Shown: positions 49,648 to 62,575 of the stretch, in pieces
Position numbering within the stretch: position 1 is the first letter of the stretch
Layout of the letters: each line of letters begins with the position of its first letter
Source: Clostridia bacterium
Lineage (GTDB): Bacteria > Bacillota > Clostridia > Lutisporales > Lutisporaceae
Direction: 5' to 3'
NCBI GenBank assembly: GCA_017994115.1
Contig: JAGOLK010000004.1
Span: 213-64,212, forward strand
Length of the DNA: 64,000 bases
The notes under the pieces: generated by a model
The model's input: the letters and a program-made list of their open reading frames with translations, nothing else
Told to the model about the DNA's origin: nothing
The model's database searches: none
Program-made: the position numbers and the translations under genes

Positions 49648-50634
49648 TTATTTCATTTCAATGGCATCCTTGGGGCACTTGGCAAAGCATTGACCGCAGC
49701 CTACGCATTTATCATCCAGCACCTTATGCTTACCCTTCAGTTCTCCCTCAATTGCCTCAAAATTGCAATTCTTCGAACAGATTGTACAGCCTATGCATTT
49801 GTCTTCAATAATAAAGGCTTTTTTTCTGTCTGCAAAGTTGGCATATATGGTTTTTGTAGGACATACTTCAGCGCACATCATACAATTGACACACTTGCTG
49901 TAATCTATCTTCGCAACATTGTTTTCAACCTTTATTGCATCAAATTTGCATGCTTTCACACATTTTTGGCAAGCAATGCAGCCGACTTTGCAGGCTTGCA
50001 TCGTAGCTTTGCCTTTATCCTGATTCCTGCAAAGCACTCTTACCTTCTTTGATACAGGAACCAGTTCGATAATCCCCTTAGGGCATACCGCTATGCACTT
50101 TTTGCAGGCAGTACATTTTTCTTCATCAACTACAGCAATACCGTTAACTATATGAATAGCATCAAAGGGACATTCCCTTACACAGGTGCCAAGTCCGGTA
50201 CAGCCATACCGGCAGCTTTTGGAACCCCCTGCAAGCATTTCTGCCGCCTTGCAATCCTTTATACCCTGATATTCATACTTTTCTGCTGCATTGTTACTGT
50301 CACCGCAGCAGATTACTCTTGCTACCTGACGTTCAGCGGAACTTGCTTCAACGCCCATAATCACCGCAAGTTTTGCTGCAAGCTCAGCTCCTCCTACAGG
50401 GCATTGGGAAATCGGCGCATTTCCGCTTGCAATAGCCTCGGCCAATGCATCGCAGCCGGCAAACCCGCATCCGCCGCAGTTGGCACCAGGTAAAACATCT
50501 CTGACTTCTGTAACCTTGGGATTAACCTCAACAGCAAACTTCTGTGATGCATAAGCCAGTACTATGCCGAAAAAAACTGCCAGACCTCCCAGTACTATTA
50601 CAGGCAAGCCTATACTATTAAACAAGGTAATCAC
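49648..50634 (-). CDS. rnfB: Rnf complex subunit B (polyferredoxin type)
   Basis: An N-terminal transmembrane helix, a CxxCGxxGC cluster, then multiple CxxCxxCxxxCP 4Fe-4S motifs. Confidence 0.85.
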   Translation of the reverse strand: MITLFNSIGLPVIVLGGLAVFFGIVLAYASQKFAVEVNPKVTEVRDVLPGANCGGCGFAGCDALAEAIASGNAPISQCPVGGAELAAKLAVIMGVEASSAERQVARVICCGDSNNAAEKYEYQGIKDCKAAEMLAGGSKSCRYGCTGLGTCVRECPFDAIHIVNGIAVVDEEKCTACKKCIAVCPKGIIELVPVSKKVRVLCRNQDKGKATMQACKVGCIACQKCVKACKFDAIKVENNVAKIDYSKCVNCMMCAEVCPTKTIYANFADRKKAFIIEDKCIGCTICSKNCNFEAIEGELKGKHKVLDDKCVGCGQCFAKCPKDAIEMK

Positions 50635-50657
50635 CTCTACTTTCTTCTAAACTAATA

Positions 50658-51242
50658 CTAAAGCAGTCCGCTGAATAAACCGCTGAATCCAAGAAAGGCT
50701 ATGGAGAATAAGCTGGCCGCTATCATTGCTATCGGGAACCCATCAAGAGCTTTTGGTGTAGGCGCCAAATCAAGTCTTTCCCTGACACCGGCAAAAAGTA
50801 TAATAGCAAGTGCAAAACCCAGGCCTCCGCCTACTCCGTTAATCAATGACTCAATCAGATTATAGCTTTTATTTATATTCAGTATAGCAACACCCAGCAC
50901 TGCACAGTTGGTGGTAATAAGCGGCAAATATATGCCCAATGCCTGATATAGCGTGGGGCTTGTCTTCTTAATTACCATTTCAACAAACTGTACAAGGCCT
51001 GCTATAACAAGTATAAAAGCTATAGTCTGCAAATATCCTATACCCATAGGATCAAGTATAAATATCTGTACTGCCCAGCATATTACTGATGCCAAGCCCA
51101 TTACAAAAGTAACAGCCACACTCATTCCTACCGCTGTATCTATCTTCTTCGACACCCCCAAGAACGGGCATATACCCAAGAACTGGGAGAGGATAAAGTT
51201 GTTTATAAATATCGCACTGACCAGAATTAATGCTATTTTCAT
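50658..51242 (-). CDS. rnfA: Rnf complex subunit A
   Basis: A 194 aa RnfA/NqrE-type membrane protein. Confidence 0.9.
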   Translation of the reverse strand: MKIALILVSAIFINNFILSQFLGICPFLGVSKKIDTAVGMSVAVTFVMGLASVICWAVQIFILDPMGIGYLQTIAFILVIAGLVQFVEMVIKKTSPTLYQALGIYLPLITTNCAVLGVAILNINKSYNLIESLINGVGGGLGFALAIILFAGVRERLDLAPTPKALDGFPIAMIAASLFSIAFLGFSGLFSGLL

Positions 51243-51256
51243 CTGTATCTCCCTCC

Positions 51257-51853
51257 TTAACCCTTTCTCAGACTGGTGATTTTGTTAAATGCAGCAATTG
51301 TAAGTCCAAATACAAGGAAGCCCCCCGGAGGCAGTATCGCTATCAAAGCCGGTTCAAAACCTGCACCGAAAAGCTGTATTCCGAAGAATGTACCTGCACC
51401 CACTACTTCTCTGATTGCGCTTATTATTGTGATAGCTACTGTAAATCCGAGTCCCATTCCTAAACCATCCATAATGGAATTCAAAGGCGGATTCTTAACC
51501 GCAAAGGCTTCCGCCCTTGCAATGATTATACAGTTAACAACAATAAGAGGAATATATAGCCCCAGGGATTTATCCAGTGCAGGTGAATATGCCTGTATGA
51601 CCATCTGCACTATCGTAGTAAACGTAGCGATTACTATAACAAATATAGGAATCCTGACCTCATTGGGTGTTGCCTTTTTAATAAGCGATATTATAAGGTT
51701 AGAACCTACAAGAACTGCAGTTGCAGCTATTCCCATACCTATACCGTTAAACACGGCTGTGGTAATTGCAAGAGTAGGGCATGTTCCGAGTACCAACCTA
51801 AATGTCGGATTCTCTTTTATTAAACCATTATTAAAATCCTTCCAAAGATTCAT
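51257..51853 (-). CDS. rnfE: Rnf complex subunit E
   Basis: A 198 aa RnfE/NqrD-type membrane protein (LGTCPTLA). Confidence 0.9.
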   Translation of the reverse strand: MNLWKDFNNGLIKENPTFRLVLGTCPTLAITTAVFNGIGMGIAATAVLVGSNLIISLIKKATPNEVRIPIFVIVIATFTTIVQMVIQAYSPALDKSLGLYIPLIVVNCIIIARAEAFAVKNPPLNSIMDGLGMGLGFTVAITIISAIREVVGAGTFFGIQLFGAGFEPALIAILPPGGFLVFGLTIAAFNKITSLRKG

Positions 51854-51880
51854 TTTTTCACCTCCAAATTTTTTTAGTAA

Positions 51881-52465
51881 TTACTTACCTGACAATTCCC
51901 TTGCCGCATCCAAGGCTTGGTTAACTCCTTCAGCTACTGCCTTTGATGTAATTGTCGCACCTGATATTGCGGCAATTTCATTATCCTTTGGAGTACCGCT
52001 CTTTATAACATTGATTGGGCTCTCCCATGTCTTACCGCTGAACTGTTCCTGGAACTTTGGAGTCTCTGATTTTTTCCCAAGTCCCGGAGTTTCAGTATTG
52101 TTTCCGACCTTAATTCCCTGCAGGCTGCCATCGGTAGTTATGCCTACTACTACATCTATAGCCCCGCCGTAACCCTTTGGCGCTGCTTGGACTGCATAAC
52201 CCACAACATTTCCTCCGGCCTTGGCGACATATATTGCTTTTATATAGTTATACTTTTCATTAGATGCAATTGTTGAAAATGTGCTGTCATCCAGTTTCTC
52301 AAATTCATCAGCCTCCGGAAGCACGGCTTTTTTTGCTTCGTTATTTGCTATTATCTGTTGTTCCTGGATTCTTTCAAAAGTTGCCGCATTCGTAAAACCT
52401 AAGGCCGCAGCAGCAACAGCGCATACTATAAACAGTATGCCGGCCAGTCTAATATAGTCACGCAC
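51881..52465 (-). CDS. rnfG: Rnf complex subunit G (FMN-binding)
   Basis: An N-terminal anchor and an FMN-attachment region (ISGATITS). Confidence 0.85.
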   Translation of the reverse strand: MRDYIRLAGILFIVCAVAAAALGFTNAATFERIQEQQIIANNEAKKAVLPEADEFEKLDDSTFSTIASNEKYNYIKAIYVAKAGGNVVGYAVQAAPKGYGGAIDVVVGITTDGSLQGIKVGNNTETPGLGKKSETPKFQEQFSGKTWESPINVIKSGTPKDNEIAAISGATITSKAVAEGVNQALDAARELSGK

Positions 52466-53411
52466 TTTTCTTCACCTCCCCGAATTTTCTGGGCATTGTA
52501 TATTTGTCAATAAGAGGTGTTGCAACATTCATGATAAGTATTGAATAAGATACTCCTTCCGGATAGCCTCCATAGAATCTTATTAATGAAGTCAGAAAAC
52601 CGCAGCCGATGGCAAAAATTATCTGGCCCTTTGGAGACATCGGAGACGTTGAATAATCCGTAGCCATGAATATCGCACCGAGGAATAGTCCTCCGGCTAA
52701 TATATTATAAATCATTGTATCCGCATCAAAACCGCCGAACAAGAATGAAAGTACCGCCACTGTTGCTATATATACCAACGGTATTCTGTAGCTGATTACT
52801 CTTCTGTACAAAAGATAAGCTCCCCCGATAATAAGCGCCAGCACAGATGTTTCACCGATACATCCGCCTATATTGCCGATAAACATGTCCCATAAACCGG
52901 GAAGTGCTTGTCCAGCTGCTTCACCGCCTTTTAAAATTGCAAGGGGTGTTGCTGTTGAAACGGCGTCCGCACCGGGTGCAACCCAGCCCGTCATTCTTAC
53001 AGGCCATGAAGCGAGAAGCATCGCTCTCGCCGCCAAAGCAGGGTTTATAAAATTATAGCCCAATCCTCCAAAGCACTGCTTGGCTATAGCTATTGCAAAT
53101 ATCGAGCCAACGGCAACCATCCAAAGAGGAAGTGTAACAGGCACGTTGAAAGCAATTAGTATACCGGTAACTACAGCACTCAAATCATTAACGGTAACAG
53201 GCTTTCCCAATATCTTCTGCATAACGGCTTCAGTTGCCACAGCAAAAGCCACAGCAACAGCCGTAAGAGTTAATGCGTTTAATCCAAAGTAAAATACACC
53301 GGCCAAAAGCGCAGGCATAAGTGCAATTATCACATCCAGCATAATCTTCTGGGTGGTCTCTCCGGATCTTATATGCGGTGATGATGATACTAAAAATCTG
53401 CTATTTTCCAT
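52458..53411 (-). CDS. rnfD: Rnf complex subunit D
   Basis: An NqrB/RnfD-type membrane protein. The start is at MENSRF, after GGGAGGGG. Confidence 0.9.
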   Translation of the reverse strand: MENSRFLVSSSPHIRSGETTQKIMLDVIIALMPALLAGVFYFGLNALTLTAVAVAFAVATEAVMQKILGKPVTVNDLSAVVTGILIAFNVPVTLPLWMVAVGSIFAIAIAKQCFGGLGYNFINPALAARAMLLASWPVRMTGWVAPGADAVSTATPLAILKGGEAAGQALPGLWDMFIGNIGGCIGETSVLALIIGGAYLLYRRVISYRIPLVYIATVAVLSFLFGGFDADTMIYNILAGGLFLGAIFMATDYSTSPMSPKGQIIFAIGCGFLTSLIRFYGGYPEGVSYSILIMNVATPLIDKYTMPRKFGEVKKSA

Positions 53412-53425
53412 TTCTTCCCCTCCCA

Positions 53426-54772
53426 TCACTTAGACTGGGCTTTTTTACGCCTAGCCAGTATTTCGCGTTTTGATACCCTAATTGAATCAACAAGAGGCCT
53501 CTTAGCAGGGCATACAAAAGAACAGGATCCGCATTCAATACAATCCATAGCATTTAACGCTTCAGCCTCATCATGCCTGTTGGCAAGCGAGTACATGCTT
53601 ATATTCACAGGCATAAGGTTTATCGGACATGTTTCAACACATTTGCCGCACTTTATGCAGTTGGAAGGTTCAGGCAGCCTTGCTTCCTCTTCAGAAAGCA
53701 CCAGTATACCGGATGTGCCCTTTATTGCCGGTATATCCAGTGAAAACTGGGTTATACCCATCATTGGCCCCCCTGCAATAACCTTCCCAACCTTGCCCTT
53801 AAGCCCTCCGCATTGTTCTATTATATCCTTGAAAGATGTTCCTATCTTGACTAAAAGATTCTTGGGGTTATTTACCCCTGCTCCTGTAACAGTCACTATC
53901 CTTTCTATCAAAGGCATACCTGTCTTTATAGCTGTTGCAACTGCCGCCGCAGTTCCTACGTTGTTAACTACAACTCCGGCATCAGCCGGCAGCCCCCCGG
54001 AGGGAACCTCTCGGCCGGTGCATGCATAAATAAGCTGCTTTTCAGCCCCTTGAGGATATTTGGTCTTAAGTGCCACTACTTCAATATCCTCAATTCCCCT
54101 GGCTGCTTCATAAACCTTCTCTATTGCATCAGGCTTGTTAGTCTCTATACCAATGTATCCTTTTTTAACTCCCAGGGCTTTCATCAGTGCCTGCAGCCCA
54201 AATACCACATTTTCAGGATGTTCAAGCATCAGCCTGTGGTCTGAAGTCAGATAAGGTTCACATTCAGCACCGTTTAATATTACTGTATCCACATTTTTGT
54301 CCGGCGGCGGAGCAAGCTTGACATGGGTTGGGAAAGTAGCTCCTCCCATACCGACTATACCTGCTTCTTTTATTATGTTCTTTATATCCTCAGCTGAAAG
54401 ATTTGAAATATCTCCTTTGGGAACCACCTGATCCGAAGTGGTGTTCTGCATGTCATTCTCAATTACTATGCAGGGCACAGCCATTCCTCCCGAATACAGC
54501 CTCGGCTCTACTGCTGCAACCTTTCCCGATACACTGGAATGCACCGGGACTGATACAAATCCTTTAGCCTCCCCTATTTTCTGTCCTACCTTCACCTCAT
54601 CACCGACCTGCACAATAGGCTCACAAGGAGCACCTATATGCTGCTGCATGGGGATTACAACAACCTTAGGTTCATTGGCTCTCTCTATCGGCAGGCTTTC
54701 AGTTGCCTTCTTACTGTGTGGTGGATGGGTTCCGCCCTTAAATGTCAGTGTTCTTATATTCAATTTGCTCAC
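53426..54772 (-). CDS. rnfC: Rnf complex subunit C
   Basis: An NADH/FMN-binding fold (GMGGATFPT) and two C-terminal 4Fe-4S motifs (CIKCGKCVETCP, CIECGSCSFVCP). Confidence 0.9.
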   Translation of the reverse strand: MSKLNIRTLTFKGGTHPPHSKKATESLPIERANEPKVVVIPMQQHIGAPCEPIVQVGDEVKVGQKIGEAKGFVSVPVHSSVSGKVAAVEPRLYSGGMAVPCIVIENDMQNTTSDQVVPKGDISNLSAEDIKNIIKEAGIVGMGGATFPTHVKLAPPPDKNVDTVILNGAECEPYLTSDHRLMLEHPENVVFGLQALMKALGVKKGYIGIETNKPDAIEKVYEAARGIEDIEVVALKTKYPQGAEKQLIYACTGREVPSGGLPADAGVVVNNVGTAAAVATAIKTGMPLIERIVTVTGAGVNNPKNLLVKIGTSFKDIIEQCGGLKGKVGKVIAGGPMMGITQFSLDIPAIKGTSGILVLSEEEARLPEPSNCIKCGKCVETCPINLMPVNISMYSLANRHDEAEALNAMDCIECGSCSFVCPAKRPLVDSIRVSKREILARRKKAQSK

Positions 54773-54964
54773 CCCTTAATTTATATAAATAAGTAAATCC
54801 CAGCATTGAGACCTAATAAACTCACAATTAGTATCTATTCGACGCGTGTATACAAAATCCTTTAGCTATATTTTTTTTTGCTCGATATTCTTTTAACATT
54901 TTCTGAATATGTTCTTCCGCTAATATTATTCACCAATCCGGCAATACTATTTCTGAGGTGAAGA

Positions 54965-55099
54965 ATGCCTGGTGAACACCAGACATATTATAATATAGCA
55001 AAGCTGGTTGAAAAGTCAAAGGAAATTTGTCGAGAAAATTCCAAGGAATATATGATTATTGATATTGATGAAAAAGGCCGCCTCAGCGTTTTCAACTAA
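54965..55099 (+). CDS. Possible 44 aa hypothetical protein
   Basis: The ATG lies 5 nt after GAGGTG. Translation is MPGEHQTYYNIAKLVEKSKEICRENSKEYMIIDIDEKGRLSVFN. The 3' end lies inside the opposing terminator. There is no family recognition. Confidence 0.25.
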   Translation: MPGEHQTYYNIAKLVEKSKEICRENSKEYMIIDIDEKGRLSVFN

Positions 55100-55106
55100 G
55101 ACAGCC
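55068..55106 (-). terminator. Terminator after the NuoF-like gene
   Basis: On the minus strand, GGCUGUCUUAG UUGAAAACG CUGAGGCGGCC forms an 11-bp stem that needs three G-U pairs. It is valid only on the minus strand and is followed by UUUUU. Confidence 0.6.
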
Positions 55107-55138
55107 TTTTTGAAGCTTTTTTGTTTTTTAACTTTTCT

Positions 55139-56932
55139 CTATTTCCTTATTATTGCCTTGAATGGGCACTTCTGCATACAAACTCCGCATTTTATGCACT
55201 TGCTGGAATCAATGGTATAGGGAGTCTTTGGCTGGCCTGAGATACACTGCTGCGGACAATTTTTGGCACATATTCCGCAACCCTTGCACTTATCGGCTAT
55301 AATAAAGTAATTCAGCAGTTCCTTACATACTCCCGCCGGACATTTCTTATCCTTAATGTGTGCTTCATACTCGTTTCTGAAATATTTTATTGTTGAAAGT
55401 ACAGGGTTCGGAGCTGTCTGTCCCAATCCGCAGAGAGCCGAATTCTTGATGTTTTTTGCAAGATTTTCAAGCTTATCTATATCGCCTTCTTCACCTTTGC
55501 CTTCAGTTATTCTCTCGAGGATTTCCAGCATTCTCTTGGTACCTTCACGGCACGGCGTGCACTTTCCGCAGGATTCATCAACTATGAAATCCATGAAGAA
55601 CCTTGCAATATCAACCATACAATTGTCTTCATCCATAACAATCATACCGCCGGAGCCTATAATGGAACCTAATGCAGCAAGACTTTCATAGTCAATAGGT
55701 GAGTCAAGGTGTTCTTCAGGAATACAACCGCCTGAAGGGCCGCCTGTCTGAACAGCTTTGAATTTCTTTCCGTTGGGGCAGCCTCCGCCTATTTCATATA
55801 TTACATCTCTCAATGTTGTTCCCATAGGTATTTCAACAAGACCTGTATTGTTTATTTTGCCGCCAAGTGCGAATACTTTTGTGCCCTTGGATTTTTCCGT
55901 ACCCATGCTGGCAAACCATTCAGGCCCTTTGTTGAATATTACAGGTATGTTTGCATAGGTTTCAACATTGTTAAGTATTGTAGGCTTTGCAAACAATCCT
56001 TTATTTGCAGGGAACGGAGGCCTTGGCCTTGGCATACCTCTCTGTCCTTCAATCGAAGCTATAAGAGCTGTTTCTTCGCCGCATACAAAGGCTCCTGCTC
56101 CAAGCCTCAGCTCAATATCAAATTTAAAACTTGTTCCCATTATATTATCTCCAAGCAGACCATACTGCCTTGCCTGGCCTATTGCTATTCCGAGACGTTT
56201 AACAGCTATCGGATATTCCGCCCTGCAGTAAATATACCCTTGGCTGGCACCAATAGCATAACCGGCAATAGTCATAGCTTCAAGTATTGAGTGAGGATCT
56301 CCTTCCAGAACGCTTCTGTCCATGAACGCACCCGGGTCTCCTTCGTCAGCATTGCAAAGAACATATTTCTGGTCATTTACTGATTTTGATGCAAAATCCC
56401 ACTTCATTCCGGTAGGGAAGCCGGCACCGCCTCTTCCTCTAAGCCCGGATTTCTTAACTACATCAATTACTTCCGCCGGTGTCATTTCCGTAAGTACCTT
56501 TTGAAGAGCCTTGTAACCGTCAAAAGCTATATATTCATCTATGTTCTCCGGGTTAATTATACCGCAGTTCCTTAATGCAACTCTAACCTGCTTCTTGAAG
56601 AAATCAACTTCTTCAAGTGCTTTCAGCCTGTTTTCTTCAACTGACTCTGCATAAAGCAGCCTCTTCACAACTCTGCCCTTTACCAGATGCTCCTTTACAA
56701 TTTCCTCTACATCTTCAGGTTTAACCATACTGTAGAAAGAAGCTTCCGGATAAACAATAACTACCGGGCCCAGTGCACAAAGTCCAAAACAGCCTGTTCT
56801 TTCCACAACAACTTCTTTTTCAAGCCCATGCTTCTTTATTTCATCTTCAAAGTTCTTTGCTATCTGTTCAGAATTTGAGGAAGTACAGCCAGTACCTCTG
56901 CAAATCATGACATGAGAACGATACATCTCCAT
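55139..56932 (-). CDS. NuoF-like NADH-binding flavoprotein (HydB/HndC type)
   Basis: An N-terminal thioredoxin-like 2Fe-2S domain, an FMN/NADH site (GRGGAGFPTGMKW), a SLBB domain, a 4Fe-4S site (CGKCTPCREG) and two C-terminal ferredoxin motifs. Confidence 0.85.
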   Translation of the reverse strand: MEMYRSHVMICRGTGCTSSNSEQIAKNFEDEIKKHGLEKEVVVERTGCFGLCALGPVVIVYPEASFYSMVKPEDVEEIVKEHLVKGRVVKRLLYAESVEENRLKALEEVDFFKKQVRVALRNCGIINPENIDEYIAFDGYKALQKVLTEMTPAEVIDVVKKSGLRGRGGAGFPTGMKWDFASKSVNDQKYVLCNADEGDPGAFMDRSVLEGDPHSILEAMTIAGYAIGASQGYIYCRAEYPIAVKRLGIAIGQARQYGLLGDNIMGTSFKFDIELRLGAGAFVCGEETALIASIEGQRGMPRPRPPFPANKGLFAKPTILNNVETYANIPVIFNKGPEWFASMGTEKSKGTKVFALGGKINNTGLVEIPMGTTLRDVIYEIGGGCPNGKKFKAVQTGGPSGGCIPEEHLDSPIDYESLAALGSIIGSGGMIVMDEDNCMVDIARFFMDFIVDESCGKCTPCREGTKRMLEILERITEGKGEEGDIDKLENLAKNIKNSALCGLGQTAPNPVLSTIKYFRNEYEAHIKDKKCPAGVCKELLNYFIIADKCKGCGICAKNCPQQCISGQPKTPYTIDSSKCIKCGVCMQKCPFKAIIRK

Positions 56933-56985
56933 TAATATTACCTCCTACAGATTACTATATTCCTTTCTGTCCCTCAAGCCTTCCT

Positions 56986-57354
56986 TTATTTACTTTCAGC
57001 ACCGATTGTATATCCCTCAACAACCTTGCCCTTCATAATATGTTCATTGACTATTCTAATGGCCTTTGATGGATTTACCTTAACATAAGTAACCTTCTCC
57101 TCGCCGGGTTTATATACTTCTACTATAGGCTCAAGCCTGCACATGCCTATACAGCCTGTCTGGGCAACTACCACATCCGACAGATCGTGTTTTTTTATTT
57201 CGTCCATTATTGTCAGAAGTACCGGTCTTGCTCCTGCAGCAATACCGCAGGTTGCCATACCGACAACTATTCTGGTGCCGGATCTATCTTTTCTGATATT
57301 GATCGTATCCAGGGTTTTCTTTCTGATTTCTTCCAATTCCTGAATTGTTTTCAT
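56986..57354 (-). CDS. Thioredoxin-like [2Fe-2S] ferredoxin domain protein (HndB/HydD-like)
   Basis: The start is MKTIQELEEIRKK, 6 nt after GGAGGTG. Cys residues are in MATCGIAAG and GCIGMC. Confidence 0.75.
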   Translation of the reverse strand: MKTIQELEEIRKKTLDTINIRKDRSGTRIVVGMATCGIAAGARPVLLTIMDEIKKHDLSDVVVAQTGCIGMCRLEPIVEVYKPGEEKVTYVKVNPSKAIRIVNEHIMKGKVVEGYTIGAESK

Positions 57355-57355
57355 C

Positions 57356-57919
57356 TTACACACCTCCGCGTATATTCTTTAAACCTTCATTAATATAATC
57401 CTTAATCCACATCAGAACCTCGGGTTCCCCCAAGTTAACATCATTACCCAAAGCAGTTCTGATCTCCCTTGTATCCAGGCAAAAATCCCTTCCATCAACA
57501 ATGTGCCTGTATACAAAATCAACAACTCTATTAACATCAGATCCTGCAAGAATTAGACTCAACATGGTTTCAGCCATATTTCCCATTGGAGCCCTGTCTA
57601 TATGGCTATGTTTGAATACAGCTGTAAGCTGCGTTCCCACATTTTTTTCCGATTCTATGACAAGATCCCCTTCACATCTCCTGCATGCTGCCTGCATAAG
57701 AGGTATCCCCAATCCTACCTTTCTGCTTGTCCTTGTAGTTACAAAGGGATCCATTACCTTCACAAGAAAATCCTTATCCATTCCCTTACCGTTGTCATTT
57801 ATACAGATAGTTAGTCGATCCGCTTTTGTATCTTCTTCCACTGAAATCTCCACAAGGCTGGCTCCTGCTGAAATCGAATTCTGGGACAAATCAAGGATAT
57901 GCAGTGATAAATCCTTCAT
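57356..57919 (-). CDS. Stand-alone GHKL (histidine kinase-like) ATPase domain protein
   Basis: HILDLSQNSISAG, DNGKGM, GLGIPL. No DHp/His-box region is present. Confidence 0.7.
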   Translation of the reverse strand: MKDLSLHILDLSQNSISAGASLVEISVEEDTKADRLTICINDNGKGMDKDFLVKVMDPFVTTRTSRKVGLGIPLMQAACRRCEGDLVIESEKNVGTQLTAVFKHSHIDRAPMGNMAETMLSLILAGSDVNRVVDFVYRHIVDGRDFCLDTREIRTALGNDVNLGEPEVLMWIKDYINEGLKNIRGGV

Positions 57920-57926
57920 CCTGATA

Positions 57927-58397
57927 TTAATACTTCTTCACAATATCCGGGATATCATCCGGAACCAATTTGCCGTATACATCTTCACCAATCATCATTA
58001 CCGGAGCAAGGCCACAGCAGCCCAGGCATCTGGTTGCCTCAAGAGTAAACTTTCCATCCGATGTCGTACCCCCGGTTTTTACATTCAGCTCTTCTTCAAG
58101 TCTTTCAAGTACCCCTTTGGAGTTCTTAACATAGCAGGCTGTTCCGAGACATACGCTTATTGTGTGCTTGCCTCTCGGAGTCAAGGTGAACCTTGAATAA
58201 AAAGTAGCTACGCCGAATATTTCAGCTACCGGAATGTTTAATACTTCTGATATCCTCTTCATTACTTCCTCAGGAATATATCCGAATAATTCCTGTGCTT
58301 CATGAAGAATTGGTATTAAAGCACCCTTCTGATCCTTATGCTCCAGGATAACGTCCTCCAATTTCTCCATGTTTTCCTTCATTGCTGCGTCAGACAT
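57927..58397 (-). CDS. NuoE-like [2Fe-2S] subunit (HydC/HndA type)
   Basis: The Cys pattern is CLGTACYV ... CLGCCGLAP. RBS is GAAGGAGGG. Confidence 0.85.
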   Translation of the reverse strand: MSDAAMKENMEKLEDVILEHKDQKGALIPILHEAQELFGYIPEEVMKRISEVLNIPVAEIFGVATFYSRFTLTPRGKHTISVCLGTACYVKNSKGVLERLEEELNVKTGGTTSDGKFTLEATRCLGCCGLAPVMMIGEDVYGKLVPDDIPDIVKKY

Positions 58398-58685
58398 TAA
58401 AGAGTTCCCTCCTTCAAATATTTATAATTGGAAATAGTAACAACTTATATTGAATACACGGATTCAATAAAATTTAGGTTGTTGTTTCGTGAACTTTTGC
58501 CTTCTTTTTATTTGTTTTTCACGAAAATAACTATTGATATAAATTTGTCAATTACGTCCTACAATATTGTATCACATATTAGATATTTTTTTAACAAATA
58601 TTTTAATATTTTTTCTTTTTCCTGTTTGTTTTTTCTGAAACTGTATATAATAATTGGTTTGGAGTATTTTTTTATTTAAAGTTTT

Positions 58686-59402
58686 TTATTGTTTGGGGTC
58701 CAGCTTGCTGAAAAGCTCACTGACCGTCAGGCAATCCAGCTCAATAAAAAAATCCCTTTCGCTTATATCTTCAAGATAATGAGCGTCAGAGGAAATTATA
58801 TAATTGAATCTGCTAAGAAAAGGATACTTTTTAAAAGCTGCATCCGGAGTGCATCTTTTTGATATTTCCACTGTTTTGACCTTAAGATCCGGAGGAATGA
58901 AGCCAAGATTGGTTATGATACTGAAACCCTGTCTGTCCACATGAGCGGGTATACACACCCCTCCAAGCCCTCTGGTCAATATGAACACATCATTGACTGA
59001 GAGTATTGTGGAAGACAGAAGCAGCTTATGCTCTTTTCCTATTATTTCATCTGAACTGTTAAAAATCAGTTGACGTCCGAAAATTTCTTCGTTGTTCTCT
59101 ATATCCGGTAAGGAATTATAAACAATCTCCGCGAATTTCATTGCTCCTTCCATTCTTTTAAAAAGGCACAATAAATGAACTTCCTCTTTTGTCTGAACCT
59201 CCATTCCCGGAATAACCATCAATCCGTTCTCTTTTGCTGCTTCCATAACGGCAGGAAGATTGCTGCAGGAATTGTGATCTGTAACCGCTATGATATCGAG
59301 CCCTTTCAACAAGGCCATATTTACAATGTTGCATGGTGTCATATCCTCATCACCGCACGGTGATAATGCGGAGTGTATGTGAAAATCCACCGCAAATTCC
59401 AT
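58686..59402 (-). CDS. PHP (polymerase/histidinol phosphatase) domain protein
   Basis: The start is MEFAVDFHIHSALSPCG, and VTDHNS is present. Confidence 0.7.
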   Translation of the reverse strand: MEFAVDFHIHSALSPCGDEDMTPCNIVNMALLKGLDIIAVTDHNSCSNLPAVMEAAKENGLMVIPGMEVQTKEEVHLLCLFKRMEGAMKFAEIVYNSLPDIENNEEIFGRQLIFNSSDEIIGKEHKLLLSSTILSVNDVFILTRGLGGVCIPAHVDRQGFSIITNLGFIPPDLKVKTVEISKRCTPDAAFKKYPFLSRFNYIISSDAHYLEDISERDFFIELDCLTVSELFSKLDPKQ

Positions 59403-59403
59403 A

Positions 59404-59739
59404 CTACTCAATTCCCATCCTGTATAGTTCTTTTGCAATCCCATATGCGCTTAAGCCCGACAGGTACACAGGCACTCCCTCATCCTCCGCTTTTCGGAGA
59501 GTATCCTCCTCAACCTCCACGCCTTCGGGTATAATGATACAGCCCAGTTCAAGCAAAGTTGCCACTGCGACGATATTTGCATGAGTCTGCACGGTTATCC
59601 ATGCGTCTCCTTTACTGGCATGAGCCATAGCCCAGCTTAAAAGATCACATATATAAACTCCGGTAAGCTCCCTGCTGGTTCCGGCCTCTCCTGCCAACAG
59701 CTTCAATCCAATTTTTTCTCCGGCATCTCTTACTAACAT
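59404..59739 (-). CDS. DRTGG domain protein
   Basis: A 111 aa small single-domain protein, paralogous in architecture to 61513-61863. Confidence 0.6.
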   Translation of the reverse strand: MLVRDAGEKIGLKLLAGEAGTSRELTGVYICDLLSWAMAHASKGDAWITVQTHANIVAVATLLELGCIIIPEGVEVEEDTLRKAEDEGVPVYLSGLSAYGIAKELYRMGIE

Positions 59740-59750
59740 GTTAACCCTCC

Positions 59751-61031
59751 CTATAATTGCGGTTTTTCTTTATTGAAACTTTTCATGGTTTTGACTATGC
59801 AAACTGCATTCCGGTTTTCACCCTTCACTATGTCCTCTGCAAATGCCTTGCAGGTTGGAGCCCCGCAGACACCGCAGTCTATTCCCGGCAAGTCCTTCAG
59901 CATTTCCTTTATCTTTTCCATTTTCTTAATGGATTTGCCGATATCATCATCCAGACGCATTACAGCTATGGGCTCAATGGCTTCAGTCAATCGGATGAAT
60001 CCGCTCTTATACATTTCTATTTGTTTCTTAATCTCTTCCTCACCGGGATTTGAATCCGGAAGCCCTTTTGCAAGGGTTTTCATGCGTCTCTTGGCTATAA
60101 AAGGGTTCTCTATTGTAAGAGGCCCTCCCACACAACCTCCGACACAGGCCATTCCCTCAAAAAACTCCAATCCCTCAAGCTTATCCATTTCAATTTCTTC
60201 CAGAATTTTAATAACCTCATGTATTCCATCTACGGCAAGGTAATTTTTTATACCCAAAGGCTCTCCCTGTCCTCCTATTATCGGCCATAACAAAGATTCC
60301 TTTGTACTCCTGGTCAGATCCTCCGCATTGCTGCCTAAATTTCTCAGCATCATGCCATATACATCCTTCATTGACAGTACACCATCGATGTAGGACTTTT
60401 TTATGCCTATGGGGTGTTTTACGCTTGTCATTCTGGCTGTGCAGGGAGAAATATAGATTACTCCTATCTCCTCCATGGAAAAACCTGTCTTTCTGACAGC
60501 CTCAGTCTTTGCAAGGCGTGCCGCTATCTCAACCGGCGTTTCTATATCCACAATATTAGGCAGCAGTTCAGGGAATCTAATCTGTATAAGCCTGAGGGCA
60601 GCAGGGCAACTAGAATTGATTATAGGGCGTTTTCTCTCAGGATTCTTGAGAATGTGGTTTTTTAATACATTGGTTATTATCTCTGTCCCAACAGATGCCT
60701 CGAAGATTTCATCGAAGCCTATCTTCTTTACGGCCGTAAGCATTTCATTGATTTCGACATTGCCTCGGAATTGCCCATACAGCACCAGAGACGGTACAGC
60801 AATAGTATATTTATAATTCTTTAATATTTCTTTACTGTCTGTGACAGCATTCTTGGCATGATTGGGGCATATTCTTATGCATTCACCGCAGTCAATGCAT
60901 TTTTCACCTATAATACAGGCTTTCCCTTCTTTCAGCCTTATAGCCTCTGTCGGACATACCTTCAAACAGCTTGTACAACCGACGCATCTATCTGCATCAA
61001 GCACAACCGAATGGAAGTGCTTCTCTTTCAT
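59751..61031 (-). CDS. [FeFe]-hydrogenase-like protein with divergent H-cluster motifs (putative sensory type)
   Basis: An N-terminal 2x[4Fe-4S] domain (CVGCTSCLKVCP, CIDCGECIRICP). The H-domain motifs are SSCP (in place of TSCCP), SPCTAR (in place of MPCxxK) and EGMACVGGCVGGP. There is a C-terminal CGVCGAPTC cluster. The start is probably the ATG at 61031, after AAGGTGA. Confidence 0.75.
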   Translation of the reverse strand: MKEKHFHSVVLDADRCVGCTSCLKVCPTEAIRLKEGKACIIGEKCIDCGECIRICPNHAKNAVTDSKEILKNYKYTIAVPSLVLYGQFRGNVEINEMLTAVKKIGFDEIFEASVGTEIITNVLKNHILKNPERKRPIINSSCPAALRLIQIRFPELLPNIVDIETPVEIAARLAKTEAVRKTGFSMEEIGVIYISPCTARMTSVKHPIGIKKSYIDGVLSMKDVYGMMLRNLGSNAEDLTRSTKESLLWPIIGGQGEPLGIKNYLAVDGIHEVIKILEEIEMDKLEGLEFFEGMACVGGCVGGPLTIENPFIAKRRMKTLAKGLPDSNPGEEEIKKQIEMYKSGFIRLTEAIEPIAVMRLDDDIGKSIKKMEKIKEMLKDLPGIDCGVCGAPTCKAFAEDIVKGENRNAVCIVKTMKSFNKEKPQL

Positions 61032-61032
61032 T

Positions 61033-61473
61033 TTATTCACCTTGCTCACCTGCTTTCAAATCTACTTCAATAACAATTTGAGTACCTGTTCCTTCTGAAG
61101 AAGTCACATAAAATCTGTCTGAGCATCTTTTCATATTGGGCAAACCCATGCCGGCTCCAAAGCCCATTTCCCTTACTCTATCGGTAGCCGTTGAATAACC
61201 TTCCTTCATTGCCAGTTCTACGTCAGCTATGCCCGGCCCCCTGTCACTTGCTATTATCCTGATAACCCCAGGGGTAATCTCCAACACAATCTGACCCCCG
61301 GTAGAATGTATGACAATATTCATTTCCGCTTCGTAAGCGGCAATGGAAATCTTTCTTATAATACTTGAGTCGATACCCAATTCCCTCAATATTTTCTTTA
61401 CTTTGCTTGACGTTTCTCCCGCTCTGACAAAATCATCTTTTTCCACATTGAATATATACTTTATATCTTCCAT
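61033..61473 (-). CDS. RsbW/SpoIIAB-like GHKL serine kinase (anti-sigma regulatory factor family)
   Basis: The start is MEDIKYIF, 8 nt after GGAGGA, with AYEAEMNIVIHS and DRGPGI motifs. Confidence 0.65.
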   Translation of the reverse strand: MEDIKYIFNVEKDDFVRAGETSSKVKKILRELGIDSSIIRKISIAAYEAEMNIVIHSTGGQIVLEITPGVIRIIASDRGPGIADVELAMKEGYSTATDRVREMGFGAGMGLPNMKRCSDRFYVTSSEGTGTQIVIEVDLKAGEQGE

Positions 61474-61512
61474 TAGGTAATTCCTCCAAATAGGCAGCCA
61501 AAATCCGGCCAA

Positions 61513-61863
61513 TCAATCGATACTTACACCTTCCAGCCCGTTGCTGTAAAGCTTGCCAGAAGCAGTATACATAGTATCCCTGGTCAACAGCAAAGCAATG
61601 CCCTTCTCAATAGCCAAGTCAACTATATCCTCGCCGGGTTTTTTCCCCCTGACAAAAACTATTGCGCTTAGGTCTGCCATTTCCGCAGTTCTTACCACCT
61701 GCTGGTTGGTTAGTCCGGTAAGGAGTAGGGTTTTGCCCTTTACAAAAGCTAATACGTCGCTCATAAGATCAGATCCGAAAGCATATGAAACCTCGTTTTC
61801 CAACAGATCGTCTCCGCACAGCACTTCTGCATTCAATACTTCTTTAACCTCACATATTTTCAT
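61513..61863 (-). CDS. DRTGG domain protein
   Basis: A 116 aa protein containing LLLTGLTNQQVVRTAEM. It is the first gene of the cluster. Confidence 0.6.
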   Translation of the reverse strand: MKICEVKEVLNAEVLCGDDLLENEVSYAFGSDLMSDVLAFVKGKTLLLTGLTNQQVVRTAEMADLSAIVFVRGKKPGEDIVDLAIEKGIALLLTRDTMYTASGKLYSNGLEGVSID

Positions 61864-61983
61864 ATATAAACCCCCTTAAGAGAACCATGTATGATGGTAT
61901 ACTTACAATATATATTTATTATACAATATAAAAAGCATAAAATCGACAATAAATTAACAAAGTCTTTCCGTTTCTTCTTTTTA

Positions 61984-62012
61984 TTGATATGCCCTTTTAT
62001 TTGTACTAAAAT
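61984..62012 (+). promoter_or_regulatory. Sigma-A promoter of the lytic transglycosylase gene
   Basis: TTGATA, a 17 nt spacer, then TAAAAT, about 15-25 nt upstream of the RBS AGGAGG. Confidence 0.5.
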
Positions 62013-62026
62013 AGAACCAACAGGAG

Positions 62027-62575
62027 GTGATTGAATTGTCTTCCATCTTATCCGGCATTCTTCGACAAAAGCTGTTAGAAATACAAAATCAGCTTCCTCC
62101 CTATGTCAAGATAATAAAGGACGACCCTCCAAGCTTTGAGAACGTACTTAACAAGGAGATCAATGAGCAATCCGATGTTCAAAATAATTACAGCGGAGAT
62201 TACAGCCATTTAATTAAAGCTGCTGCGAAAAAATATAATATCAACGAAAATTTAATAACCGCCGTTATGAAAGCAGAATCCGGCTTTGACCCTAATGCAG
62301 TATCAAGGGCAGGGGCAATGGGCCTGATGCAGCTTATGCCTGAAACCGCAGAAGCCTTGGGAATACATAACGCTTTTGACCCGCAGGAAAATATAGAAGG
62401 AGGCGTCAGATATCTTAAGGATATGCTGACAGAGTTTGGCGGTAATCTGGAGCTTGCTCTTGCAGCATACAATGCAGGCCCCAATGCTGTTAAGAAGTAC
62501 GGCGGGATACCGCCTTATGAAGAGACTCAGAACTATGTGAGAAAAGTAATGTCAAGCCTTAAAAACAAAACATGA
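62027..62575 (+). CDS. Lytic transglycosylase (SLT domain) protein
   Basis: AESGFDPNAVSRAGAMGLMQLMP and AYNAGP motifs. The start may be the TTG at 62036. Confidence 0.8.
   Translation: MIELSSILSGILRQKLLEIQNQLPPYVKIIKDDPPSFENVLNKEINEQSDVQNNYSGDYSHLIKAAAKKYNINENLITAVMKAESGFDPNAVSRAGAMGLMQLMPETAEALGIHNAFDPQENIEGGVRYLKDMLTEFGGNLELALAAYNAGPNAVKKYGGIPPYEETQNYVRKVMSSLKNKT

What the first reader, a model, noticed from the sequence alone, without database searches (positions are those of the whole stretch)
55139..61863. Sensory-type [FeFe]-hydrogenase-like gene with kinase-like, DRTGG and PHP partners and a NuoE/NuoF module, but no catalytic HydA
Nine co-oriented genes form two tightly packed groups. 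The first group is DRTGG, an RsbW-like GHKL kinase, a 426 aa hydrogenase-like protein, a second DRTGG and a PHP protein. After a 288 nt AT-rich gap comes the second group: NuoE-like, a stand-alone GHKL ATPase, a 2Fe-2S ferredoxin and NuoF-like.

In known bifurcating hydrogenase operons the NuoE, (kinase-like), ferredoxin and NuoF genes are followed by hydA. An example is the HydABCD cluster of Thermoanaerobacter. Here an intrinsic terminator (55068-55106) follows the NuoF-like gene, and the next genes are rnfCDGEAB.

The only H-domain protein has SSCP instead of TSCCP, so the proton-relay Cys is replaced by Ser. It also has SPCTAR instead of MPCxxK and carries an extra C-terminal CxxCxxxxC cluster. 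These are features associated with regulatory rather than catalytic hydrogenases.

The combination suggests an H2- or redox-sensing signalling module working by partner-switching or phosphorylation, coupled to a flavin-based NADH/ferredoxin module next to Rnf. As far as I know its function has not been established.
Basis: partly seen in the sequence, partly recalled or inferred. Interest (0 to 1): 0.6.

Follow-up and report, generated by a model that had tools for sequence, protein, structure and literature searches.

The report
Group D hydrogen-sensor cassette, hydA elsewhere
This is a normal copy of a very widespread but mechanistically unsolved gene cassette built around a putative hydrogen-sensing iron hydrogenase; here its usual neighbour, the catalytic hydrogenase gene, has moved to another contig, and the genes that build the hydrogenase cofactor were not found in this genome or in half of the relatives searched.

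Summary
In detail: all nine minus-strand genes, the 288-nt gap, the terminator and the motifs are as described.

The 426-aa protein meets the sequence definition of a Group D (M2e, TamHydS-type) putative sensory [FeFe]-hydrogenase. The set DRTGG-GHKL-HydS-DRTGG-PHP is a conserved cassette, with each partner present in 77-96% of 80 related loci. Fusions in other genomes join HydS to DRTGG2 and DRTGG1 to the kinase-like ATPase, which names them as likely signalling partners. This scan has noted the cassette before in at least 272 other genomes.

"No catalytic HydA" holds only for this locus. An A3-type HydA lies on another contig, next to a HylA/HytE-like Fe-S protein and a selenocysteine formate dehydrogenase. 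The window's NuoE/NuoF pair is the only one found in the assembly, so it is probably their shared NADH/ferredoxin module. The order NuoF-terminator-rnfC recurs in the five closest relatives with enough flank.

The unexpected result is that HydE, HydF and HydG were found in none of 13 of the 26 genomes searched (this one included) and all three in the other 13. Twelve of the 13 without them still carry hydrogenase genes, and HydS keeps its cluster cysteines.

The parts
61513..61863 (-). DRTGG1, a 116-aa single-domain DRTGG protein and first gene of the cassette.
   Evidence: Pfam DRTGG, E 1.9e-9. The AlphaFold model has pLDDT 91.5 and matches AF1212 (PDB 2ioj, the Pfam DRTGG structure) at TM 0.83. 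It is present upstream of HydS in 66 of 71 loci with enough flank. It is fused to the GHKL1 homologue in L023, L030 and L071.
61033..61473 (-). GHKL1, a small RsbW/SpoIIAB-like GHKL ATPase or Ser-kinase-like protein. The ORF runs up to 61512.
   Evidence: HATPase_c and HATPase_c_2 hits, and TIGR01925 SpoIIAB at E 1.2e-12 but below that model's cut-off. The N box (YE.E.N.vIH), G1 box (D.GpGI) and G2 box (GFGAGMGLpN) are at least 80-95% conserved across 77 homologues. It is present in 68 of 71 loci.
59751..61031 (-). Group D (M2e, TamHydS-type) putative sensory [FeFe]-hydrogenase, 426 aa.
   Evidence: 2x Fer4 + PF02906 + PF04060 and no PAS domain. The four H-cluster Cys positions are kept. The C299 position is Ser and the M353 position is Ser. 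A C-terminal Cx2Cx4Cx16C motif is present. These match the M2e definition in PMC8163306. In the protein database 7871 homologues score E <= 1e-10.
59404..59739 (-). DRTGG2, a 111-aa paralogue of DRTGG1, starting 11 nt after the HydS stop.
   Evidence: hhalign of A2 against A3 gives probability 99.6% over the full length, with a shared invariant D-[LM]-[LM]-S motif at residues 32-35. It is fused to the C-terminus of HydS homologues in P0175 (523 aa) and P0251 (537 aa). It was detected in 61 of 79 loci.
58686..59402 (-). PHP-family phosphoesterase, about 238 aa, last gene of the cassette.
   Evidence: Pfam PHP, E 2.4e-11. All metal-ligand motifs (D.H.H, tDHN, E, H, paH, SDAH) are conserved in 71 homologues. 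It is present in 69 of 79 loci.
58398..58685 (-). AT-rich 288-nt spacer holding the promoter of the second unit. It contains an extended -10 element, TGaTACAAT, at about 58566-58574, and a 20-bp palindrome, ATTGACAAATTTATATCAAT, at 58533-58552.
   Evidence: Both elements are conserved in an alignment of the window with L013-L018, which share down to 60% HydS identity. The pattern ATTGAYA-N6-TRTCAAT has a single exact match in the 64-kb window. No Rfam family matches this region.
57927..58397 (-). NuoE/HoxE/HydC-like [2Fe-2S] subunit.
   Evidence: PF01257, E 6.8e-53, and NF005747 HoxE, E 1.3e-52.
57356..57919 (-). GHKL2, a stand-alone histidine-kinase-type ATPase domain with no DHp/His domain.
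   Evidence: HATPase_c, E 2.9e-14. The N, G1 and G2 boxes are conserved in 50 homologues. It follows the cassette even where NuoE/NuoF are not detected downstream within the fetched flank (L027, L029, L040, L047, L059).
56986..57363 (-). Small thioredoxin-like [2Fe-2S] ferredoxin, in the position of HydD.
   Evidence: NF041612 2Fe-2S ferredoxin, E 1.9e-11. Conserved GM.TCGIaAGARpV and TGCiG.C motifs.
55139..56932 (-). NuoF/HydB-like FMN- and NADH-binding subunit with an N-terminal 2Fe-2S domain and a C-terminal 2x[4Fe-4S] domain.
   Evidence: PF01512, PF10589, SLBB and Fer4 hits, and TIGR01959 at E 2.6e-156. It is the only NuoF-type gene found in the assembly apart from RnfC.
55071..55111 (-). 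Intrinsic terminator after nuoF.
   Evidence: A 17-bp stem, -23.1 kcal/mol, z = -5.9, followed by UUUUU.
49648..54772 (-). rnfCDGEAB (ferredoxin:NAD+ oxidoreductase), the next transcription unit. It is context, not part of the cassette.
   Evidence: Pfam RnfC_N/Complex1_51K, NQR2_RnfD_RnfE, FMN_bind, Rnf-Nqr x2 and FeS+Fer4. A sigma-70-like promoter, TTGACT-16-TATATT with a TG, lies at 55019-54992.

Best explanation
The region holds two adjacent operons.

Operon 1 (61863 to 58686) is the widespread Group D HydS cassette: DRTGG1, a SpoIIAB/RsbW-like GHKL ATPase or kinase, the M2e hydrogenase paralogue HydS, DRTGG2, and a PHP phosphoesterase.

Operon 2 (58397 to 55139) encodes HydC(NuoE), GHKL2, a 2Fe-2S ferredoxin and HydB(NuoF). 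This is the NADH/ferredoxin half of a HydABC-type flavin-based bifurcating enzyme. In this lineage its catalytic partners are encoded elsewhere. An A3-type HydA, a HylA/HytE-like Fe-S protein and a selenocysteine FdhA lie together on contig C36. The NuoE/NuoF pair probably serves both a hydrogenase and a formate dehydrogenase, as in the HytA-E/FdhA and HylABC-FdhF2 complexes.

Inferred mechanism. HydS registers H2, or the redox state of its clusters. The signal passes to DRTGG2, which sits where the PAS domain sits in Group C sensors and is fused to HydS in some genomes. DRTGG2 pairs with its paralogue DRTGG1, which is fused to the kinase-like GHKL1 in other genomes. GHKL1 then changes the phosphorylation or nucleotide state of a target, and the PHP enzyme resets it. 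The output tunes the neighbouring NADH/ferredoxin-dependent enzyme, possibly through GHKL2.

What is shown: the gene identities, the conserved order, the fusions and the location of hydA. What is inferred: the sensing, the order of steps and the target.
For: - Identity: Pfam and NCBIfam hits. The M2e sequence criteria of PMC8163306 are met.
- Cassette conservation in 80 loci at 42-96% HydS identity: GHKL1 68/71, DRTGG1 66/71, PHP 69/79, DRTGG2 61/79. Downstream, 24 of 58 loci carry NuoE/NuoF plus HydA.
- Tight packing: spacers of 0-11 nt within operon 1.
- Catalytic motifs of GHKL1 and PHP are conserved.
- The DRTGG fold is confirmed, and DRTGG1 and DRTGG2 are paralogues.
- Fusions: DRTGG1-GHKL1 in L023, L030 and L071, and HydS-DRTGG2 in P0175 and P0251.
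- Catalytic partners: HydA, HylA-like and FdhA (Sec at U352) lie on C36. The same cluster occurs in G001, G002, G006, G003 and G010.
- The only NuoF-type gene in the assembly is the window's.
- NuoF is followed directly by RnfC in L013 and L015-L018.
- The Hyt and Hyl complexes are described in PMC5861303.
Against: - No experiment links any cassette protein to HydS. PMC13104023 (2026) states that the interaction partners are still unknown, and that the C-terminal cluster is not reduced by H2.
- No conserved transcription factor or sigma factor lies next to the cassette, so the output is undefined.
- In 27 of 58 loci the cassette has no NuoF within 9 kb downstream.
- HydE, HydF and HydG were not found in this genome. 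If that absence is real, HydS cannot carry a normal H-cluster, which undermines H2 sensing here.
- The assembly is only 81% complete, so 'only NuoF' and 'hydA only on C36' are provisional.
Confidence: 0.6

Rival explanations
1. This is an H-cluster-independent sensor, or there is an unknown maturation route. This lineage truly lacks HydE, HydF and HydG. Either HydS (and HydA and the group B enzyme) works with only its [4Fe-4S] clusters, for example as a ferredoxin or NADH redox-state sensor, or the [2Fe] subcluster is built by an unrecognised pathway.
For: - HydE, HydF and HydG were all absent in G000.
- All three were absent together in the same 12 of 25 relatives and present together in the other 13.
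- Twelve of the 13 maturase-less genomes (G000 included) still have PF02906 genes. These include genomes that are 95-100% complete in 10-20 contigs (G002, G019, G023).
- G019 and G023 carry the whole cassette plus NuoE/NuoF and HydA.
- HydS keeps all four H-cluster Cys and the C-terminal motif in genomes both with and without maturases.
- In several relatives that have maturases, the three genes lie on different contigs, so joint loss through binning is unlikely.
- The same paradox is published for archaea, with an alternative pathway proposed (PMC11216029).
Against: - G000 is 81% complete.
- Within the genus the hydE-hydG-hydF genes form one cluster that often sits on short contigs (G004 C592, L117-L119), so a single binning loss could remove all three.
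- Conserved cysteines fit equally well with a normally matured enzyme.
Confidence: 0.3
2. HydS is the catalytic partner. The 426-aa protein is itself the low-activity hydrogenase subunit that docks on NuoE/NuoF at this locus, making an NADH-linked hydrogenase without HydA.
For: - It is co-oriented and adjacent to NuoE/NuoF with no hydA between.
- TamHydS does turn over H2 slowly.
- It has two N-terminal [4Fe-4S] clusters that could relay electrons.
Against: - It lacks the NuoG-like 2Fe-2S / 4Fe-4S N-terminal module (Fer2_4, NADH-G_4Fe-4S_3) that HydA, HylA and FdhA all have.
- Elsewhere the cassette usually coexists with a true HydA after NuoF (24 of 58 loci), or occurs with no NuoF at all (27 of 58 loci).
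- A separate promoter and a 288-nt gap split the two units.
- The genome has an A3-type HydA.
Confidence: 0.08
3. The hydA-less layout is an assembly or binning artefact, or the genes are decaying remnants.
For: The genome is a MAG of 127 contigs. Scaffold C36 has a run of about 100 N at the 3' end of hydA.
Against: - The same NuoF-to-rnfC junction occurs in five independent MAGs at 60-96% HydS identity.
- The same HydA-HylA-FdhA cluster occurs in five relatives.
- All nine ORFs are intact with conserved catalytic motifs.
Confidence: 0.03

Closest known systems
TamHydS, the Group D (M2e) putative sensory [FeFe]-hydrogenase of Thermoanaerobacter mathranii (PMC8163306; PMC13104023)
   Same: - Domain plan: 2x[4Fe-4S], H-domain, C-terminal Cx2Cx4Cx16C cluster, no PAS domain.
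- The proton-relay Cys is lost and M353 is replaced by a hydroxyl residue.
[quoted passage not shown]
   Different: - Identity to the Thermoanaerobacterales homologues fetched here (L020, L025) is only about 49-51%.
- Position 299 is Ser here and Ala in most others. K358 is Arg. M497 is kept.
- hydA does not follow nuoF here.
- No maturases were found in this genome.
Group C (M2f) HydS / HfsB systems (Thermotoga maritima HydS, Ruminococcus albus HydS, Thermoanaerobacterium hfsABCD; PMC5707799)
   Same: An H-domain paralogue with a C-terminal 4-Cys cluster, thought to sense H2 and to signal through kinase and phosphatase partners.
   Different: Group C proteins carry a fused PAS domain and pair with Ser/Thr kinases and PP2C phosphatases. 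Here there is no PAS domain. A DRTGG protein occupies that position, and the phosphoesterase is of the PHP type.
Electron-bifurcating HydABC(D) hydrogenases (T. maritima, A. woodii PDB 7q4v, T. kivui PDB 8a6t)
   Same: - NuoE-like, NuoF-like and small 2Fe-2S ferredoxin subunits, with a GHKL gene embedded.
- The genome's HydA scores 684 bits against A. woodii HydA1 and has the same TSCSPGW motif.
   Different: hydA is unlinked from hydB and hydC. It sits with FDH genes on another contig, and rnf directly follows nuoF.
HytA-E/FdhA (Clostridium autoethanogenum) and HylABC-FdhF2 (C. acidurici) complexes (PMC5861303)
   Same: A NuoE/NuoF-type module shared with a HydA or HylA-like Fe-S subunit and a selenocysteine formate dehydrogenase.
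   Different: Here the NuoE/NuoF genes and the HydA/HylA/FdhA genes are in two separate loci. Complex formation is inferred, not shown.
RsbW/SpoIIAB partner-switching modules
   Same: A small GHKL protein with an intact ATP-binding site, whose best NCBIfam match is SpoIIAB.
   Different: There is no STAS antagonist, no PP2C phosphatase and no linked sigma factor. The score is far below the SpoIIAB cut-off.
Archaeal and protist [FeFe]-hydrogenases without HydEFG (PMC11216029)
   Same: Hydrogenase genes with intact H-cluster ligands occur in genomes lacking all three maturases.
   Different: Here it occurs in Bacillota, within a genus where other species do have hydEFG. As far as I found, this has not been described for this group.

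Membership tests
Group D (M2e) [FeFe]-hydrogenase | H-domain with the four H-cluster cysteine ligands | tested here: met
   PF02906 at 117 bits. The Cys in SSCP, SPC and ACVGGC are conserved in 13-16 homologues.
Group D (M2e) [FeFe]-hydrogenase | Two N-terminal [4Fe-4S] motifs and a C-terminal Cx2Cx4Cx16C motif | tested here: met
   CxxCxxCxxxCP occurs twice, at residues 16-27 and 45-56. C386, C389, C394 and C411 are invariant in A1. PF04060 hit. The definition is taken from PMC8163306.
Group D (M2e) [FeFe]-hydrogenase | No PAS domain (this separates it from Group C / M2f) | tested here: met
   There is no PAS hit at E <= 0.01, and the protein ends 15 residues after the last Cys.
Group D (M2e) [FeFe]-hydrogenase | Proton-relay Cys299 not conserved, and M353 replaced by Ser or Thr | tested here: met
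   NSSCP gives Ser at position 299, with Thr or Ala in relatives. (S/T)PC gives Ser or Thr at position 353 in all 16 sequences.
Group D (M2e) [FeFe]-hydrogenase | Falls in the TamHydS clade in a phylogeny with Group A-G references (HydDB) | not tested
Group D (M2e) [FeFe]-hydrogenase | Binds an H-cluster and shows slow, high-affinity H2 turnover | not testable with these tools
   This is biochemical. In addition, HydEFG were not found in this genome.
Electron-bifurcating HydABC hydrogenase operon | HydB (NuoF-like, FMN) and HydC (NuoE-like) subunits | tested here: met
Electron-bifurcating HydABC hydrogenase operon | hydA encoded with hydB and hydC | tested here: not met
   A terminator and rnfC follow nuoF. 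hydA is on contig C36.
Electron-bifurcating HydABC hydrogenase operon | HydE, HydF and HydG maturases present in the genome | tested here: not met
   No match over the cut-off to TIGR03956, TIGR03918 or TIGR03955 in the 81%-complete assembly. The same result holds in 12 of 25 relatives.
RsbW/SpoIIAB partner-switching system | Anti-sigma Ser kinase meeting the family model | tested here: inconclusive
   TIGR01925 scores 47.9 bits against a cut-off of 135. The ATP-binding boxes are conserved.
RsbW/SpoIIAB partner-switching system | STAS-domain antagonist, PP2C phosphatase and a cognate sigma factor | tested here: not met
   The partners are DRTGG (fold confirmed) and PHP. No further gene family is conserved around the cassette in 80 loci; the largest cluster covers 9 loci.
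Group C (M2f) HydS/HfsB | C-terminal PAS domain | tested here: not met
DRTGG domain family (PF07085) | DRTGG fold | tested here: met
   The model has pLDDT 91.5. Foldseek gives TM 0.83 to 2ioj (AF1212) and 0.77 to the DRTGG domain of CBS-pyrophosphatase (3l2b). HPr kinase N-terminal domains come next.

The most novel reading that the evidence does not exclude
In this Bacillota lineage the Group D sensor cassette, together with an A3-type HydA and a group B hydrogenase, is retained under selection in genomes that have lost all three H-cluster maturases. Either these proteins work without the [2Fe] subcluster, with HydS acting as an Fe-S or redox sensor rather than an H2 sensor, or bacteria have an unrecognised H-cluster assembly route like the one proposed for archaea.
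Probability: 0.4. Interest if true: 0.75.

Novelty: new member of a known kind. Interest (0 to 1): 0.42.

Why it matters
How Group D 'sensory' hydrogenases signal is an open question. The 2026 TamHydS paper lists the interaction partners as unknown. This locus adds no new kind of system. The comparison does give concrete candidates that can be cloned and tested: HydS with DRTGG2, and DRTGG1 with the kinase-like ATPase, both supported by natural fusions, with the PHP enzyme as the reset step.

The split layout shows that the NuoE/NuoF module need not be encoded with its catalytic subunit, and that it may serve both a hydrogenase and a formate dehydrogenase.

The most consequential point, if it survives a closed genome, is that the sensor is kept in species without HydEFG. 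That would either change what these 'H2 sensors' are thought to sense, or extend the alternative-maturation problem from archaea to Clostridia-type bacteria.

Tried and rejected
- HydA motif. The C36 HydA has TSCSPGW instead of TSCCP, and I suspected it was degenerate. I rejected this because the functional A. woodii HydA1 (PDB 7q4v) and the HydA of maturase-positive relatives have the same motif.
- Rex operator. The pattern TTGTKAA-N4-TTMACAA with up to 3 mismatches gave 18 hits against 16 expected. All had 3 mismatches. Weak half-site matches lie at 58580-58597 and 61943-61960. This is no evidence for Rex control here.
They are present only in the window and L013, and partly in L014. They are not conserved across L015-L018.
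- Riboswitch or RNA element. There were no Rfam matches at E <= 1 in 54700-62300.
- A conserved extra neighbour (sigma factor, transcription factor). Clustering 655 unassigned ORFs from 80 loci gave no family present in more than 9 loci.
- STAS-like fold for DRTGG. Rejected, because it is a bona fide DRTGG / HPr-kinase-N-like fold.
- Independent check of maturase absence by name. The HydG scan recovered only CAZNMO01 among the six closest assemblies.
- hfsABCD as the same system. Rejected, because that is the PAS-containing Group C system.

Full report
**1. Observation**

ORF listing and translation show nine co-oriented minus-strand genes between 61863 and 55139. Pfam and NCBIfam scans assign them as follows.
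- DRTGG (116 aa).
- A small GHKL ATPase whose best NCBIfam match is SpoIIAB, far below that model's cut-off.
- A 426-aa protein with two ferredoxin-type [4Fe-4S] motifs, an Fe_hyd_lg_C H-domain and a C-terminal PF04060 Fe-S motif.
- A second DRTGG (111 aa).
- A PHP phosphoesterase.
- After a 288-nt AT-rich gap: a NuoE/HoxE-like protein, a stand-alone HATPase_c protein, a thioredoxin-like 2Fe-2S ferredoxin and a 597-aa NuoF-like protein.

Spacers inside the first group are 0-11 nt. The hairpin after nuoF folds at -23.1 kcal/mol (z = -5.9) and is followed by a U run. A promoter-like site and rnfCDGEAB follow. The only corrections are the likely start codons of the GHKL1 and PHP genes.

**2. What the H-domain protein is**

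Land et al. 2020 (PMC8163306) define the M2e / Group D subclass by these features:
- two N-terminal [4Fe-4S] motifs;
- a C-terminal Cx2Cx4Cx16C motif;
- no PAS domain;
- loss of the proton-relay Cys299;
- replacement of Met353 by Ser or Thr;
- a location upstream of a bifurcating Group A hydrogenase, next to a histidine-kinase-like ATPase.

The window protein meets every sequence criterion. The four H-cluster Cys positions are retained. No Group C or D structure exists in the PDB; the best matches are Group A enzymes at E about 1e-23. I could not run a reference phylogeny.

The family is very large. The protein database holds 7871 proteins at E <= 1e-10. [quoted passage not shown]

**3. The cassette and its likely wiring**

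I scored six-frame ORFs of 80 related loci (42-96% HydS identity) against the window's proteins. Where enough flank was available, the counts were:
- GHKL1 in 68 of 71 loci;
- DRTGG1 in 66 of 71;
- PHP in 69 of 79;
- DRTGG2 in 61 of 79.

All were in the same order and orientation. No other gene family is conserved around the cassette; the largest cluster covers 9 loci. There is therefore no linked sigma factor or transcription factor.

GHKL1 keeps its N, G1 and G2 ATP-binding boxes, and PHP keeps all its metal ligands. DRTGG1 and DRTGG2 are full-length paralogues (hhalign probability 99.6%) with an invariant D-[LM]-[LM]-S motif at the same position. The DRTGG1 model (pLDDT 91.5) is a genuine DRTGG fold. 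It matches AF1212 at TM 0.83, then the DRTGG domain of CBS-pyrophosphatase, then HPr-kinase N-terminal domains. It is not a STAS fold.

Two kinds of natural fusion occur.
- DRTGG1-GHKL1 as single ORFs in L023, L030 (Tepidanaerobacter) and L071.
- HydS-DRTGG2 in P0175 and P0251, where DRTGG directly follows the C-terminal Fe-S motif.

That is the position the PAS domain occupies in Group C sensors. My working model is HydS to DRTGG2, then DRTGG2 pairing with DRTGG1, then GHKL1, with PHP as the reset enzyme. Only the gene facts and the fusions are shown. The interactions and the chemistry are inferred.

GHKL2 follows the cassette even where NuoE/NuoF are not detected downstream within the fetched flank (L027, L029, L040, L047, L059). 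It may therefore belong to the signalling set.

Earlier notes of this scan describe the same cassette in at least 272 other genomes and also cite fusions. I reproduced the fusion evidence independently.

**4. Where the catalytic subunit is**

Downstream of the cassette, the 58 loci with enough flank divide as follows:
- 24 have NuoE-GHKL2-Fdx-NuoF-HydA;
- 27 have no NuoF within 9 kb;
- 5 have NuoF followed by RnfC with no HydA. These are the window's closest relatives, L013 and L015-L018, at 60-96% HydS identity;
- 2 have other arrangements.

The layout is therefore a lineage trait, not an assembly error.

The window's assembly is a MAG of 1.97 Mb in 127 contigs, 81% complete. It has three H-domain genes.
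- HydS, in the window.
- A 480-aa TSCCCP-type enzyme on C6, of group B2 type.
- An M3-type HydA on C36.

The C36 HydA scores 684 bits against the bifurcating A. woodii HydA1 and shares its TSCSPGW motif. It is followed by a 304-aa HylA/HytE-like Fe-S protein and an 892-aa FdhA. The FdhA has an in-frame TGA (U352) at the canonical selenocysteine position. The same cluster occurs in G001, G002, G006, G003 and G010.

The only NuoF-type gene in the assembly, apart from RnfC, is the window's. The simplest reading is that NuoE/NuoF act in trans with HydA and/or HylA-FdhA. This resembles the HytA-E/FdhA and HylABC-FdhF2 complexes (PMC5861303).

**5. The maturases**

TIGR03956 (HydE), TIGR03918 (HydF) and TIGR03955 (HydG) gave no match over the cut-off in G000. 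Across G000 and 25 relatives, the three are all present in the same 13 genomes and all absent in the same 13.

Twelve of the 13 maturase-less genomes still carry PF02906 genes. Among them:
- G002 is 95% complete in 20 contigs;
- G019 is 97% complete in 10 contigs, with the full cassette-NuoE/NuoF-HydA operon;
- G023 is 100% complete in 20 contigs.

All 12 other genomes of the genus, like G000, have HydS. In G012 (99% complete) it is the only H-domain gene found. The HydS cluster ligands are conserved whether or not maturases are present.

Caveats:
- within the genus, hydE-hydG-hydF form one cluster that often lies on short contigs, so a single binning loss is possible;
- G000 is incomplete;

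The same paradox is published for archaea (PMC11216029). I found no note of it for this cassette, either in the scan's earlier findings or in the literature searches I ran.

**6. Regulation signals**

No Rfam family matches the region. A Rex-box search gave no more hits than chance. Alignment of the nuoE upstream regions of the window and L013-L018 shows two conserved elements: an extended -10 (TGaTACAAT) and, just downstream, a 20-bp palindrome ATTGAYA-N6-TRTCAAT (window 58533-58552). The palindrome has a single exact match in the window.

**7. Verdict**

This is a correct observation of a known, widespread and mechanistically unsolved cassette: a new member of a known kind. Two features are local to this lineage. 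hydA is unlinked and sits with formate dehydrogenase genes, while rnf abuts nuoF. HydEFG are apparently absent. The second feature is the only part a specialist would find surprising, and it still needs a closed genome.

Noticed in passing
Own genome contig C36 (locus L004:6344-11819): The cluster holds hydA (A3/M3 type), a 304-aa HylA/HytE-like Fe-S protein and a selenocysteine FdhA (TGA at residue 352 in HCARLUHAP). MoaB- and MoaC-like molybdopterin-synthesis genes lie upstream. A run of about 100 N interrupts the 3' end of hydA.
   Followed up: partly
Own genome contig C6 (locus L005:960-2402): A 480-aa [FeFe]-hydrogenase with a TSCCCP motif (three adjacent Cys, group B2 type) and APC in place of MPC. 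It stands alone, next to a PLP-dependent enzyme gene.
   Followed up: no
G000 and relatives G001-G025 (whole genomes): HydE, HydF and HydG are either all present or all absent (13 genomes each way). Within the genus, the maturase-less species have the smaller genomes (1.8-3.3 Mb against 3.6-4.8 Mb) and fewer H-domain genes, but all keep HydS.
   Followed up: partly
window 58533-58552: A 20-bp palindrome, ATTGACAAATTTATATCAAT, lies just downstream of a conserved extended -10 in front of nuoE. It is conserved in all six closest relatives and is a candidate operator for an unidentified regulator.
   Followed up: partly
window 58450-58526: The inverted repeats noted earlier (TTGAATCCGTGTATTCAA and TTTCGTGAA...TTCACGAAA) lie in a segment present only in the window and L013, and partly in L014. 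This looks like a lineage-specific insertion in the leader.
   Followed up: partly
L050, L062, L063, L078 (Syntrophorhabdus / 'delta' MAGs): The cassette is followed by GHKL2-Fdx-NuoE-NuoF-HydA and then a second NuoE-NuoF-HylA set. L050 and L062 also have a divergent HydA-NuoF-NuoE unit upstream.
   Followed up: no
L022:10001-21257: In this MAG the cassette and NuoE/NuoF are followed directly by an FdhA gene rather than hydA. Here the NuoE/NuoF-FDH link is present within a single locus.
   Followed up: no
window 61900-61970: The promoter region of the cassette contains a block conserved in L013, L014 and L016 (CTTTGTTAATTTATTGTCGATTTTATGC...TTGTATAAT). It shares a TTTGTTAA element with the nuoE promoter.
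   Followed up: no
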